Source of the DNA: the human T2T-CHM13v2.0 reference genome, Homo sapiens
Length of the DNA stretch: 64,000 nt
Strand: one strand, 5' to 3'
Assembly (NCBI RefSeq): GCF_009914755.1
Contig: NC_060930.1
In this document: positions 49,308-51,862 of the stretch, in pieces
How positions within the stretch are numbered: the stretch's first letter is position 1
Layout of the letters: every line of letters starts with the position of its first letter
The notes under the pieces: model-generated
Databases searched by the model: none
Seen by the model: the letters and a program-made list of their open reading frames with translations, nothing else
What the model was told of the DNA's origin: nothing
Program-made: the position numbers and the translations under genes

Positions 49308-49420
49308 TGTGTGTCACAAAGACAACATTTTAATATCCCAATTTGTATTTACAAATGCTTTATGACCAAGTGTCTATTAAATAAATGTGAAGGGGAAAAA
49401 GCCAAAACTCAATAAAAATA

Positions 49421-49943
49421 ACTCTGATGGTAGTTTCTTTTGCTGTGCAGAAGCTCTTTAGTTTAATTAGATCCCATTTGTCAATTTTGGCTTTTGCTGC
49501 CATTGCTTTTGGTGTTTTAGACATGAAATCCTTGCCCATGCTTATGTCCTGAATGGTAATGTCTAGGTTTTCCTCTAGGGTTTTTATGGTTTTAGGTCTA
49601 ACGTTTAAGTCTTTAATCCATCTTGAATTAATTTTTGTATAAGGTGTAAGGAAGGGATCCAGTTTCAGCTTTCTACATATGGCTAGCCAGTTTTCCCAGC
49701 ACCACTAATTAAATAGGGAATCCTTTCCCCATTGCTTGTTTTTCTCAGGTTTGTCAAAGATCAGATAGTTGTAGATATGCGGCGTTATTTCTGAGGGCTC
49801 TGTTCTGTTCCATTCATCTATATCTCTGTTTTGGTACCAGTACCATGCTGTTTTGGTTACTGTAGCCTTGTAGTATAGTTTGAAGTCAGGTAGCGTGATG
49901 CCTCCAGCTTTGTTCTTTTGGCTTAGGATTGACTTGGTGATGC
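49421..49943 (-). mobile_element. Inverted 5' segment of a twin-primed young L1PA (ORF2 fragment)
   Basis: Antisense ORF2 ([23 protein letters not shown]); starts immediately after the left TSD aaaactcaataaaaata (49404-49420). Confidence 0.95.
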
Positions 49944-50141
49944 AGGAAAAAGGCCACAAGAGGGGCTGCCATGGCCACTAACGGAGATGGCCCTGGTAGA
50001 GACCTTTGGGGGTCTGGGACCTCTGGAGTCCCCATGCTCTAACTCCCACACTCTGCTATCAGAAACTGAAACTTGAGGGTTTTCTCTGTTTTTCACTCGC
50101 AATAAATTCAGAGCAAACAAAAGATGTGGAATCTGAGAGAT

Positions 50142-50474
50142 TTATTCCACTAGTGTGCTAGGACCATTAAAAAGACAAGGGCGCCCCCTTCCGGCAGAGG
50201 CTGACCACTCCAGCAGAAACTGCGGACAGGCTTTCATCCCCGGCAGAGCTACAGGCTTCCAGCAGCCTGGGGCCTCGTGGGTACTGAGCTGCGTGTGGGG
50301 GTCCAGGACCCGACGTCGCCTGCCATTCGGCCAGGGCATCGGCAGATGTATTGGTCCAGCCCCCGAGAGACCCAGGAAGAAGGCAAGGAGGTTCGGTACG
50401 AGCGATCTCGAATGGAAGAAGAAGGCAGTCCGTCTGCGGGAGCCAGGCCGCAGCGCCATCCACCTTCTGTCCAT
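50142..50474 (-). pseudogene. PRAC2: PRAC2-like open reading frame copy (110 aa from MDRRW; 134 aa from the upstream start at 50546)
   Basis: [70 protein letters not shown]...LLEW closely matches the 90-aa human PRAC2 as I recall it; no stop after LLEW. This is a paralogous copy, not the parent gene. Confidence 0.78.
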
Positions 50475-50477
50475 GTC
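50410..50477 (+). ncRNA. MIR3185: MIR3185-like hairpin paralog (68 nt; mature-like 50417-50439)
   Basis: gaatggaagaagaaggcagtccgtctgcgggagccaggccgcagcgccatccaccttctgtccatgtc has self-complementary arms and differs at 2 positions from recalled mature miR-3185 (AGAAGAAGGCGGUCGGUCUGCGG). Confidence 0.72.
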
Positions 50478-50811
50478 TTCTTTAGTAATACATTTATCTT
50501 CCTCGCCATAACAATTCGCGGTGTGGACGACCCCCTCCCCCTCCACTTTTTTTCGGATTTACTTGTATGGAACCTGTGCAAAAAATATTTAATTTCGTTT
50601 TGTATTAAACCCTTCATTGGGAATCCCTTCCCAATTTTAGTCTCCCACCTATCCCCGGACGACTACATTGAAATCTCTCTTATTTGTGTTTAAATCACAA
50701 CAAAATCTACAAACCTATATTCGCCTGCAGCTATTTACTTTTAAATAAGGGCTATGTTAAGCTACAGGAGGAAATGTTTTGCTTACCATTCGGACAAATG
50801 TGTGAACACAA

Positions 50812-51765
50812 CTACAAAATGGGAGAAAATTTTTGCAACCTACTCATCTGACAAAGGGCTAATATCCAGAATCTACAATGAACTCAAACAAATTTACAGG
50901 AAAAAAAGAAACAACCCCATCAAAAAGTGGGCAAAGGACATGAACAGACACTTCTCAAAAGAAGACATTTATGCAGCCAAAAAACACATGAAAAAATGCT
51001 CACCATCACTGGCCATCAGAGAAATGTAAATCAAAACCACAATGAGATACCATCTCACACCAGTTAGAATGGCAATCATTAAAAAGTCAGCAATCAACAG
51101 GTGCTGGACAGGACGTGGAGAAATAGGAACACTTTTACACTGTTGGTGGGAATGTAAACTAGTTCAACCATTGTGGAAGTCAGTGTGGCAATTCCTCAGG
51201 CATCTAGAACTAGAAATACCATTTGACCCAGCCATCCAGTTACTGGGCATATACCCAAAGGACTATAAAACATGCTGCTATAAAGACACATGCACACATA
51301 TGTTTATTGCAGCACTATTCACAATAGCAAAGACTTGGAACCAACCCAAATGTCCAAAAATGATAGACTGGATTAAGAAAATGTGGCACATATATACCAT
51401 GGAATACTATGCAAACATAAAAAAGGATGAGTTCATGTCCTTTGTAGGGACATGGGTGAAGCTGGAAATCATCATTCTCAGTAAACTATCACAAGGACAA
51501 AAAACCAAACACCACATGTTCTCACTCACAGGTGGGAACTGAACAATGAGAACACATGAACACAGGAAGGGGAACATCACACTATGGGGACTGTTGTGGG
51601 GTGGGGGGAGGGAGGAGGGATAGCATTAGGAGATATACCTAATGCTAAATGACGAGTTAATGGGTGCAGCACACCAGCATGGCACATGTATACATATGTA
51701 ACTAACCTGCACATTGTGCACAGGTACCCTAAAATTAAAAGTATAATAATCAAAGAAAAAAAAAA
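50812..51765 (+). mobile_element. Sense 3' segment of the twin-primed L1PA3/4-like element, with poly(A)
   Basis: ORF2 C-terminus, 3' UTR ctaatgctaaatgacgagttaatggg, A tail; right TSD aaaactcaatataaata at 51782-51798. Confidence 0.95.
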
Positions 51766-51862
51766 GGAATGACCTCAAAAGAAAACTCAATATAAATATG
51801 AATCAGAATAATTTCAGTTCCTTAAGTTTTCAAGTTTTTGCTCAGTTTTCCTTGACACTCAT

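What the first reader, a model, noticed from the sequence alone, without database searches (positions are those of the whole stretch)
49404..51798. Tripartite chimera: HOXB13-3'/PRAC2/MIR3185 locus fragment captured at the inversion junction of a twin-primed L1
Seen in sequence: TSD (49404-49420), inverted L1 (49421-49943), ~870 bp GC-rich non-L1 DNA, sense L1 3' end with poly(A), TSD (51782-51798, 16/17 match). The two L1 halves are nearly contiguous in L1 coordinates (...ccatcagagt / ctacaaaatggg, about 12 nt missing), as expected for twin priming. The foreign DNA has no poly(A) or TSD of its own, which argues that all parts arrived in one event. Recalled knowledge: the insert resembles the 17q21 HOXB13-PRAC2-MIR3185 segment. 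Inference: ORF2p switched template from L1 RNA to another nucleic acid, and the product was then joined to the second twin-primed cDNA. This would be gene-fragment mobilisation distinct from 3' transduction or a processed pseudogene; I do not know of it being described at this locus.
Basis: partly seen in the sequence, partly recalled or inferred. Interest (0 to 1): 0.95.

Follow-up and report, generated by a model that had tools for sequence, protein, structure and literature searches.

The report
HOXB13/PRAC2 fragment inside inverted L1 insertion
An old L1 jumping-gene insertion on chromosome 6 carries, exactly where its two oppositely oriented halves meet, an 865-base copy of the chromosome 17 HOXB13/PRAC2 gene ends; this is a fossil of a rare but already described kind of L1 copying accident.

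Summary
A 17-nt target-site duplication (16 of 17) brackets four parts: an inverted L1 ORF2 piece (49421-49943), about 865 bp of non-L1 DNA (49944/49947-50811), a sense L1 3' piece with an A-run (50812-51765), and a 16-nt tail. In 10 of 11 closest L1 copies the two L1 breakpoints lie exactly 11 nt apart, which is the twin-priming geometry.

The filler has one other match in the genome, on chr17 (42 mismatches in 848 aligned bases, 5 gaps). That match lies directly downstream of exons with Homeodomain and HoxA13_N matches (HOXB13) and opposite Rfam HOXB13-AS1 hits. It contains the whole PRAC2 ORF and a hairpin that I recall as MIR3185.

Divergence of the filler (5.0% pairwise) and of the L1 (3.0% private) is compatible with a single event, roughly 15-25 Myr ago.

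The filler matches no mature RNA of either strand. It crosses both convergent poly(A) signals and keeps about 241 nt of presumed PRAC2 intron. Reverse-transcriptase template switching is therefore favoured, but capture of chr17 DNA is not excluded.

The same architecture has been reported in an L1 expression model (PMC11702581). I rate this a new member of a known kind, of moderate interest. The PRAC2-like ORF in the copy shows no sign of constraint.

The parts
49404..49420 (+). Target-site duplication, left copy. The top-strand target context is CC/AAAA.
49421..49943 (-). Inverted L1 ORF2 segment (L1-sense on the minus strand). The end next to the TSD is ...CCATCAGAGT, the internal priming point.
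49944..49946 (.). AGG shared by L1 (GGG in relatives; the A may be CpG decay) and chr17 (AGG). This is a 2-3 nt junction microhomology.
49947..50811 (+). Filler copied from chr17 (C17:49587688-49588542). It is HOXB13-sense on the plus strand and PRAC2/HOXB13-AS1-sense on the minus strand.
   Evidence: 42 mismatches in 848 aligned bases, 5 gap events.
50101..50106 (+). AATAAA corresponding to the HOXB13 3'-UTR poly(A) signal. The filler starts about 155 nt before it and runs about 705 nt past it.
50142..50474 (-). PRAC2-like ORF of 110 aa. The first 90 aa are 81/90 identical to the chr17 ORF; the stop TGA has become TCA, which extends the frame. The PRAC2-sense AATAAA lies at 50141-50146.
   Evidence: hub annotation LOC124901495.
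50421..50467 (+). Decayed copy of a chr17 hairpin, recalled as MIR3185. The fold z-score is -3.8 on chr17 and -1.1 here.
   Evidence: the label is recalled, and gene adjacency comes.
50812..51751 (+). Sense L1 segment (end of ORF2 plus 3' UTR), starting CTACAAAATGGG.
51752..51765 (+). A-rich tail (AAAGAAAAAAAAAA).
51766..51781 (+). 16 nt of non-A sequence between the A-run and TSD2. It may be a tiny 3' transduction or a mutated tail; no source locus was found.
51782..51798 (+). Target-site duplication, right copy (16 of 17).

Best explanation
I propose one L1 retrotransposition event by twin priming, roughly 15-25 Myr ago.

Shown by the anatomy: the bottom strand was nicked at a T-rich site and cDNA1 was primed on the L1 poly(A). 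The top-strand end primed internally on the same L1 RNA, 11 nt upstream of where cDNA1 ended, and made cDNA2, the inverted 523-nt piece.

Inferred: before the two cDNA ends were joined, about 865 nt of chr17 sequence was added between them by reverse transcription of a second, unprocessed nuclear RNA from the convergent HOXB13/PRAC2 3'-end region. There are two sub-routes.
- (a) cDNA2 switched from L1 RNA onto an unspliced PRAC2/HOXB13-AS1-sense RNA, at the AGG microhomology. Its end was then joined bluntly to cDNA1. I slightly favour this route.
- (b) cDNA1, blocked at the cDNA2 primer, jumped without homology onto HOXB13 read-through RNA. Its end was then joined to cDNA2 through the AGG microhomology.

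End joining and second-strand synthesis then sealed the insertion. The product is a dead, promoter-less L1 carrying a neutral copy of the PRAC2 last exon, the end of the HOXB13 3' UTR and a hairpin. I see no function for it.

The confidence given (0.6) is for the RNA-templated step. That all parts arrived in a single L1-mediated event I hold at about 0.9.
For: - Single event: one TSD pair brackets all the parts. The L1 breakpoints are 11 nt apart in L1 coordinates in 10 of 11 relatives. The filler has no TSD or A-tail of its own.
- Age: the filler differs from chr17 by 42/848 (5.0% for the two lineages together; non-CpG 26/767). The L1 arms carry 44/1461 private differences (3.0%) against the majority of their relatives. 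These values are compatible with the same age.
- Typical twin priming: the junction lies about 0.95 kb, and the 5' truncation about 1.5 kb, from the L1 3' end. This is close to the medians of 5.15 kb and 4.50 kb reported for somatic twin-primed L1s, taking L1 as about 6 kb (established knowledge).
- Direction is chr17 to chr6: the chr17 copy is colinear with the HOXB13 exons (Homeodomain E=6e-19, HoxA13_N E=1.8e-23) and with HOXB13-AS1 conserved regions.
- Precedent: PMC11702581 section 7 reports three relevant things in an L1 expression model. [quoted passage not shown] The preprint 10.1101/2024.08.27.596794 describes switching by either cDNA during twin priming.
- DNA-templated additions in those two studies came from near the integration site. 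Here the source is on another chromosome, and the whole filler lies in territory transcribed on both strands.
- HOXB13-AS1 RNA is reported to be mainly nuclear.
Against: - Nothing in the sequence proves an RNA template. The filler has no A-tail, no splice junction and no recognisable transcript end.
- The filler crosses the AATAAA of both convergent genes.
- It keeps about 241 nt upstream of the strong acceptor-like site at L015 4929/4930. I infer that site to be the start of the PRAC2 last exon. It also lacks the upstream exons. It therefore cannot come from the mature 564-nt PRAC2/HOXB13-AS1 RNA or from mature HOXB13 mRNA.
- An unprocessed RNA would have had to reach the chr6 integration site.
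- The right junction is blunt. A 7-nt GTGAACA match between chr17 and the 'missing' L1 bases is offset from the junction and occurs in 341 of 19,762 control windows (1.7%). This is suggestive but fits DNA-based annealing equally well.
- The 5' junction (TSD/L1) shows 0 nt of microhomology, whereas 71% of experimental twin-primed insertions have 2 nt or more.
Confidence: 0.6

Rival explanations
1. DNA route. During repair of the L1-induced double-strand break, a free chr17 genomic DNA fragment was ligated between the two cDNA ends. Alternatively, one 3' end invaded chr17 DNA by microhomology, copied about 865 nt with a DNA polymerase, and returned (templated insertion).
For: The filler is strictly colinear with genomic DNA. 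It spans a presumed intron and both poly(A) signals and matches no mature RNA. There are short microhomologies: AGG at the left junction and an offset 7-nt GTGAACA at the right, p about 0.017. L1 integrations with DNA-templated additions exist. The abstract start of a review of templated sequence insertion polymorphisms (PMC5110952, listing only) describes insertions templated from distant regions.
Against: The reported L1-associated DNA-templated additions are short (under 250 bp) and local to the integration site (passage). This filler is 865 bp and comes from another chromosome. A reverse transcriptase known to switch templates is present at exactly this intermediate. The source lies wholly in a doubly transcribed gene-end region.
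Confidence: 0.25
2. Pre-formed chimeric RNA. A PRAC2-sense RNA was fused to a 5'-truncated L1 RNA before reverse transcription. This could have been read-through into a now-lost L1 allele in the HOXB13 3' UTR (5' transduction) or RNA ligation/trans-splicing. That single RNA was then inserted by ordinary twin priming, with cDNA2 running to its 5' end.
For: On the minus strand the PRAC2-sense filler is colinear with, and 5' of, the inverted L1 piece, as in sense-oriented 5' chimeras. PMC13174262 proposes RNA ligation, splicing and lost source alleles for 17 mRNA/L1 chimeras. The AGG microhomology looks like the 5' junction of a truncated L1.
Against: No L1 abuts the chr17 site today. There is no splice-site signature at the L1/filler junction. 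This route requires an extra, unobserved allele or ligation step.
Confidence: 0.08
3. Two separate events. An ordinary twin-primed L1 was later hit, exactly at its inversion junction, by an unrelated insertion of the chr17 fragment.
For: Divergence estimates (5.0% pairwise against 3.0% private) are too coarse to exclude a somewhat later arrival.
Against: The filler would have had to land within a few bases of the junction in a 2.4-kb element, a chance of the order of 0.1-0.4% (inference). It would also have left no TSD, no A-tail and no loss of L1 sequence beyond the usual 11 nt.
Confidence: 0.03
4. Assembly chimera or mis-join in T2T-CHM13.
For: None found. Read-level data are not available to me.
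Against: The copy differs from chr17 by 42 substitutions and 5 indels, including a 12-nt and a 4-nt insertion. A mis-joined read would be nearly identical to its source. The junctions also carry coherent L1 insertion hallmarks.
Confidence: 0.01

Closest known systems
Twin-primed (5'-inverted) L1 insertions (Ostertag & Kazazian 2001, recalled, paper not held; described in PMC2912911 passages, and PMC11702581 passages)
   Same: One TSD pair, an A-tail, and an inverted upstream L1 piece next to the TSD. The two L1 breakpoints are 11 nt apart; PMC11702581 reports 1-10 bp deletions in 22 of 32 cases. The positions along L1 are typical.
   Different: About 865 bp of non-L1 DNA sits at the inversion junction instead of a direct or microhomology join. 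There is no microhomology at the TSD/L1 5' junction. A canonical example without filler lies 2.3 kb upstream in the same window (45977-47084).
Non-canonical insertions in an L1 expression model (PMC11702581, section 7 read; its Fig. S7 was not seen)
   Same: [quoted passage not shown] It also reports a twin-primed SEMA3C insertion with two further RT sequences at its internal junction. That is the same architecture.
   Different: Those are somatic events in cultured cells whose arms are an mRNA. Here the arms are L1 itself, the event is germline, fixed and old, and the filler is unprocessed gene-end sequence rather than evident mRNA.
L1 chimeric retrogenes made by template switching or ligation: U6/L1 and mRNA/L1 (PMC4476161 passages; PMC13174262 passages and section 13); the tripartite chimera in Magnaporthe (PMC2104539, listing and abstract start only)
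   Same: A foreign sequence is fused to a 5'-truncated L1 inside one TSD pair. On either reading the filler is co-oriented with the L1 piece it would have been copied after.
   Different: In the classical chimeras the foreign part is at the 5' end of the insertion. It is usually a full-length small RNA or the first exons of a gene, with splice-donor ends. Here it is internal, lies between two L1 pieces of opposite orientation, and shows no transcript end or splice junction.
Processed pseudogene / retrocopy of PRAC2
   Same: It carries the complete PRAC2 ORF, was moved to another chromosome by L1 machinery, and is annotated by RefSeq as 'putative protein PRAC2'.
   Different: It has no A-tail or TSD of its own and lacks the upstream exons. 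It keeps presumed intron sequence and about 178 nt beyond the PRAC2 poly(A) region.
L1 3' transduction
   Same: Non-L1 unique DNA is moved together with an L1.
   Different: A transduced sequence lies downstream of the L1 3' end, comes from the source element's flank, and ends in the A-tail. This filler is upstream of the sense piece and comes from a locus with no L1.

Membership tests
L1 target-primed reverse transcription insertion | Target-site duplication of about 12-18 bp flanking the whole insertion | tested here: met
   A 17-nt TSD, 16 of 17 identical. These are the only 2 matches in 64 kb, against 0.24 expected by chance.
L1 target-primed reverse transcription insertion | Endonuclease target resembling TT/AAAA on the top strand | tested here: inconclusive
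   The site reads CC/AAAA. The AAAA half matches and the TT half does not.
L1 target-primed reverse transcription insertion | 3' A-tail directly before the downstream TSD | tested here: inconclusive
   A 14-nt A-rich run is present, but 16 non-A bases ending in AAAAG separate it from TSD2.
Twin-primed (5'-inverted) L1 | An inverted upstream L1 segment abuts the 5' TSD, and its TSD-side end adjoins the start of the sense segment in L1 coordinates | tested here: met
   An 11-nt gap (GAACAGGCAAC) in 10 of 11 close relatives, and 11 nt (GAAGAGGCAAC or GAATAGGCAAC) in 3 of 3 older copies in the window.
Twin-primed (5'-inverted) L1 | The two cDNAs are joined directly, or through microhomology, at the inversion junction | tested here: not met
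   About 865 bp of chr17-derived DNA lies between them.
Template-switch chimeric retrogene | The foreign part was copied from RNA | not testable with these tools
   No A-tail, splice junction or transcript end is present. The filler is colinear with the genome across both poly(A) signals.
Template-switch chimeric retrogene | All parts lie within one TSD pair, and the foreign part lacks its own insertion hallmarks | tested here: met
Processed pseudogene of PRAC2/HOXB13-AS1 | Copy of the mature RNA: introns removed, ends at the transcript ends, own A-tail and TSD | tested here: not met
   There is no A-tail or TSD. The Rfam HOXB13-AS1 conserved regions 1 and 2, which are flanked by splice-like motifs on chr17, are absent from the copy. 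About 241 nt upstream of the acceptor-like site and about 178 nt past the AATAAA region are retained. The exon model itself is inferred; it agrees with the published 564-nt RNA length.
Functional PRAC2 paralogue (protein-coding) | ORF conserved under purifying selection | tested here: not met
   10 non-synonymous against 4 synonymous differences in 90 codons, with the stop codon lost. No Pfam family matches. PRAC2 itself is listed among likely non-coding genes in PMC12462614 (passage).
chr17 HOXB13 / PRAC2 locus as the source | The unique genomic match is adjacent to HOXB13 exons on the same strand and to HOXB13-AS1 on the other | tested here: met
   One non-self match. Homeodomain and HoxA13_N ORFs lie 1.85-3.9 kb upstream on the same strand. 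Rfam RF02132 and RF02133 score above their gathering thresholds. The PRAC2 ORF is 81/90 identical.
MIR3185 copy | Match to a curated miRNA family or sequence | tested here: inconclusive
   Rfam gave no miRNA hit inside the filler or its chr17 source; the one miRNA-family hit, mir-1268 below gathering, is in the upstream Alu. A hairpin folds on chr17 (z -3.8) and is weakened in the copy (z -1.1). The name is recalled; gene adjacency is.

The most novel reading that the evidence does not exclude
The filler was reverse-transcribed from an unprocessed nuclear RNA spanning the abutting 3' ends of two convergent genes. That RNA was either HOXB13 read-through (the presumed primary transcript of the hairpin) or unspliced HOXB13-AS1. 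If so, L1 twin priming can duplicate a whole small gene together with genomic-style flanks (upstream intron or possible internal promoter, downstream sequence, an antisense miRNA hairpin), which ordinary retrocopies lose. This would be a route to retro-duplication with context. RefSeq's single-exon transcript model over the copy would then reflect real transcription of it.
Probability: 0.2. Interest if true: 0.55.

Novelty: new member of a known kind. Interest (0 to 1): 0.35.

Why it matters
The locus is a clean, datable germline fossil of an L1 integration intermediate that picked up a second template before its two cDNA ends were joined. That outcome has so far been documented mainly in cultured cells and tumours. 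It shows that such accidents reach fixation and can copy a complete small ORF, a UTR end and a hairpin to another chromosome. It also explains why RefSeq predicts a 'putative protein PRAC2' gene in a chr6 gene desert: it is a neutral captured fragment, not a retrocopy in the usual sense and probably not a gene. A systematic screen of fillers at L1 inversion junctions could show whether RNA or DNA feeds this pathway.

Tried and rejected
- Source of the 16-nt tail: the 22-nt pattern search gave 7 other places at 2 mismatches against 7 for the reversed control, and none follows an L1 3' end. There is no evidence for a progenitor locus.
- Rfam gave no miRNA family hit inside the filler or at its chr17 source; its only miRNA-family hit there, mir-1268 below gathering, lies in the upstream Alu.
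- Pfam gave nothing for either PRAC2 ORF.
- Literature on this locus: 'LOC124901495' returned 0 papers. 'PRAC2' plus 'pseudogene' returned 8 papers, 7 listed, none about a chr6 copy judging by titles and abstract starts. PMC13174262 has no PRAC2, HOXB13 or LINC02531 in its text or in the 4 held supplement files, and no 'chr6 92', 'chr6 93' or 'chr17 487' strings. Some supplement cells were cut, and I do not know the hg38 coordinates of the locus.
- Ostertag & Kazazian 2001 is not held.
- I considered a mature PRAC2 mRNA retrocopy and rejected it because of intron-like sequence, read-through and the missing tail.
- I considered a 3' transduction and rejected it because of position.
- I tried to decide which cDNA carried the filler from junction microhomology. 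Both routes fit: AGG on the left, a blunt join on the right, and an offset 7-nt match with control frequency 1.7%.
- Orthologous primate loci could not be examined because no primate genomes are held.
- In the divergence comparison I dropped 4 of 11 relatives for the inverted arm (L005, L009, L010, L014), because they do not align or align poorly there.
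Full report
**1. What is in the sequence**

Reading 49200-52000 shows the following, in order on the plus strand:
- AAAACTCAATAAAAATA (49404-49420).
- Reverse-complemented L1 ORF2 sequence from 49421, beginning ACTCTGATGG.
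- A switch at 49944-49946 (AGG) to GC-richer DNA that runs to 50811 (...GTGTGAACACAA).
- Sense L1 from 50812 (CTACAAAATGGG...) to a 14-nt A-rich run (51752-51765).
- 16 non-A bases (51766-51781).
- AAAACTCAATATAAATA (51782-51798).

The repeat finder lists the 17-mer pair at 94% identity. At up to 2 mismatches these are the only two matches in the 64-kb window, and shuffles average 0.24. GC rises to 0.64 in 50200-50399, against about 0.37 in the L1 arms.

**2. The L1 arms and twin priming**

Both arms align to other L1 copies in the window at 90-94% and to genome copies at 94-96% (39 other places listed out of 7,879 first-look candidates, 40 scored).

Ten of the eleven closest copies fetched (L004-L014) read ...CCATCAGAGT GAACAGGCAAC CTACAAAATGGG...; one (L010) has extra bases there. 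Three older copies in the window show the same 11-nt spacing.

The end of the inverted arm next to the TSD and the first base of the sense arm are therefore 11 nt apart on one L1 RNA. That is the signature of twin priming: internal priming by the top-strand end just upstream of where the poly(A)-primed cDNA stops. PMC11702581 reports that the two internal breakpoints are usually within 1-10 bp of each other (22 deletions and 10 duplications among 32; passage).

With an L1 of about 6 kb (established knowledge), the junction and the 5' truncation fall near 5.1 kb and 4.5 kb. This is close to the medians of 5.15 kb and 4.50 kb for somatic twin-primed L1s in preprint 10.1101/2024.08.27.596794 (figure legend passage).

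The target reads CC/AAAA on the top strand, so only the A half fits the usual TT/AAAA. The TSD/L1 junction has no microhomology.

A canonical twin-primed L1 without any filler lies at 45977-47084, in minus orientation, with TSD CGCTTTGTCCTTTTTCT at both ends. It serves as an internal comparator.

**3. Origin of the filler**

Searching the window's own genome with 49944-50810 gave the locus itself and one other place, C17:49587689-49588542 on the minus strand. BLAST against that locus extends the match to 50811.

The MAFFT alignment gives 42 mismatches in 848 aligned bases and 5 gap events; at non-CpG sites the figure is 26/767. The copy has 12-nt and 4-nt insertions relative to chr17.

On chr17, upstream on the same strand, lie ORFs matching Homeodomain (E=6e-19) and HoxA13_N (E=1.8e-23). 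A Hox13 paralogue on chr17 is HOXB13 (established knowledge).

On the opposite strand Rfam finds HOXB13-AS1 conserved regions 1 and 2, at 117 and 87 bits, above their gathering scores.

The chr17 segment contains a 90-codon ORF. The copy's ORF (50142-50474, minus strand) matches it at 81/90. This is the ORF that RefSeq labels PRAC2 in the hub annotation.

PMC6562813 equates HOXB13-AS1 with the PRAC/PRAC2 papers and calls it a 564-nt RNA next to HOXB13 (passage). PMC12317532 lists PRAC2, PRAC1, MIR3185 and HOXB13 under one methylation region (passage).

A 47-nt hairpin folds on chr17 (z -3.8) and is weakened in the copy (z -1.1). That it is MIR3185 is my recollection. Rfam gave no miRNA hit inside the filler or its chr17 source; its one miRNA-family hit, mir-1268 below gathering, lies in the upstream Alu.

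The direction of transfer is chr17 to chr6. The chr17 copy is embedded colinearly in its genes, whereas the chr6 copy is bounded by L1.

**4. What kind of template**

In HOXB13 sense (plus strand of the window) the filler starts about 155 nt before the HOXB13 AATAAA (50101-50106) and continues about 705 nt beyond it.

In PRAC2 sense, the chr17 sequence shows the following:
- Rfam region 2 is preceded by AG and followed by GT.
- Region 1 is followed by GT.
- A strong acceptor-like site (polypyrimidine tract then CAG|G) lies at L015 4929/4930.
- The PRAC2 AATAAA lies at L015 5341-5346.

A last exon of about 436 nt plus either region 1 (about 126 nt), or a 48-nt first exon plus region 2 (80 nt), sums to about 562-564 nt. 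This agrees with the published 564-nt length. The exon model is my inference; no annotation of chr17 was available.

On this model the filler begins about 241 nt inside the last intron, contains the whole last exon with the ORF, and runs about 178 nt past the poly(A) region into antisense HOXB13 3' UTR.

It is therefore not a copy of a mature RNA of either strand. It could be unspliced and uncleaved nuclear RNA of either strand (HOXB13-AS1 is reported as mainly nuclear), a separately made cDNA, or genomic DNA.

**5. The junctions**

Left junction: the window reads ...GATGCAGG|AAAAAGG, L1 relatives read ...GATGCGGG|CTC, and chr17 reads ...GAGAGAGG|AAAAAGG. This gives 2-3 nt of shared (A)GG; the A may be chr17-derived or a CpG decay of L1.

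Right junction: the window reads ...GTGAACACAA|CTACAAAA, chr17 continues TGTCAC, and L1 has C before CTAC. The join is blunt.

The last 12 nt of the filler share GTGAACA with the L1 bases that straddle the twin-priming break. A match of 7 nt or more occurs in 341 of 19,762 control 20-mers from the chr17 locus (1.7%; the windows overlap, so this is a frequency, not an exact probability).

These features fit three routes:
- (a) cDNA2 switching at AGG onto a PRAC2-sense template, followed by a blunt join to cDNA1.
- (b) cDNA1 jumping without homology onto a HOXB13-sense template, followed by a microhomology join to cDNA2.
- (c) The same routes with DNA as the template.

I could not separate them.

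**6. One event, and when**

The filler has no TSD or A-tail of its own. A later independent insertion would have had to hit the junction to within a few bases.

The L1 arms differ from the 70%-or-greater majority of their relatives at 33 of 936 sites (sense arm, 11 relatives) and 11 of 525 sites (inverted arm, 7 relatives; 4 of 11 dropped for not aligning). Together that is 44/1461, or 3.0%.

The filler differs from chr17 by 5.0% over two lineages, about 2.5% each if symmetrical. CpG losses are 6 on chr6 and 3 on chr17.

These values are compatible with co-arrival. At the usual primate neutral rates (recalled, about 0.15-0.2% per Myr) they suggest roughly 15-25 Myr. This divergence also rules out a trivial assembly mis-join.

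**7. Is the copy a gene?**

Across 90 codons there are 10 non-synonymous and 4 synonymous differences, and the stop TGA has become TCA, extending the frame to 110 aa. No Pfam family matches. PRAC2 itself is named among likely non-coding 'cancer antigen' genes in PMC12462614 (passage). I see no evidence of constraint. Whether the copy is transcribed could not be tested.

**8. Comparison with what is known**

PMC11702581 (section 7 read in full; supplementary figures not seen) describes the following in an L1 expression model:
- Nine insertions built from two RNAs.
- One twin-primed SEMA3C insertion with two separate RT sequences at its internal junction.

Preprint 10.1101/2024.08.27.596794 (passages) describes switching by either cDNA during twin priming. 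It also reports 22 'templated insertions' of non-L1 DNA, typically under 250 bp and local to the site.

PMC13174262 (abstract, passages, section 13) catalogues L1 chimeras in hg38, including 17 with mRNA or lncRNA. It assigns sense chimeras to switching, ligation or splicing and antisense ones to twin priming. This locus is not in its text or in the four held supplement files.

PMC4476161 (passages) proposes twin priming on a second RNA for inverted snRNA/L1 chimeras. A tripartite LINE chimera is known from Magnaporthe (PMC2104539; listing only).

The kind of event is therefore known. What is new here is a fixed germline example with L1 arms, a long unprocessed gene-end filler, and a complete small ORF. 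No description of this locus turned up.

**9. Verdict**

The template-switch step is favoured (about 0.6) but unproven against DNA capture (about 0.25). I rate it a new member of a known kind, with interest 0.35.

Noticed in passing
window 45977-47084: A second 5'-inverted (twin-primed) L1, in minus orientation. The TSD CGCTTTGTCCTTTTTCT lies at 45976-45992 and 47085-47101. The junction at 46138/46139 is direct, with no filler, and about 150 nt of L1 is missing between the arms.
   Followed up: partly
window 51766-51781: 16 non-A bases (GGAATGACCTCAAAAG) lie between the L1 A-run and the downstream TSD. They may be a very short 3' transduction or a mutated tail. A genome pattern search gave only chance-level hits, and none lies next to an L1 end.
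   Followed up: partly
window 29980-34515 and 56835-61020: Two older L1 copies about 92% identical to each other. Their 5' portions are in opposite relative orientation (a plus/plus block and a plus/minus block), so one of them is also internally inverted.
   Followed up: no
window 49166-49281: An Alu (weak Metazoa_SRP match, below gathering) with an (AAAAT)n-like tail lies about 110 bp upstream of the L1 target site.
   Followed up: no
L015 (chr17) 3790-3916, 4294-4374, 4929/4930: The two Rfam HOXB13-AS1 conserved regions are bounded by splice-like AG/GT motifs. A TATAAA lies inside region 1 (3839-3844), and a strong acceptor-like site precedes the PRAC2 ORF. Two exon combinations each sum to about 564 nt, the published RNA length.
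   Followed up: partly
L015 (chr17) about 5341-5385; window 50101-50146: The HOXB13 and PRAC2 AATAAA signals face each other only about 35 nt apart, so the two convergent genes end almost at the same point. The copy's extended ORF ends in a stop that lies within the PRAC2-sense AATAAA.
   Followed up: no
window 50482-50493: A 12-nt insertion in the chr6 copy relative to chr17, just upstream (in PRAC2 sense) of the ORF start, plus a 4-nt insertion about 45 nt further on.
   Followed up: no
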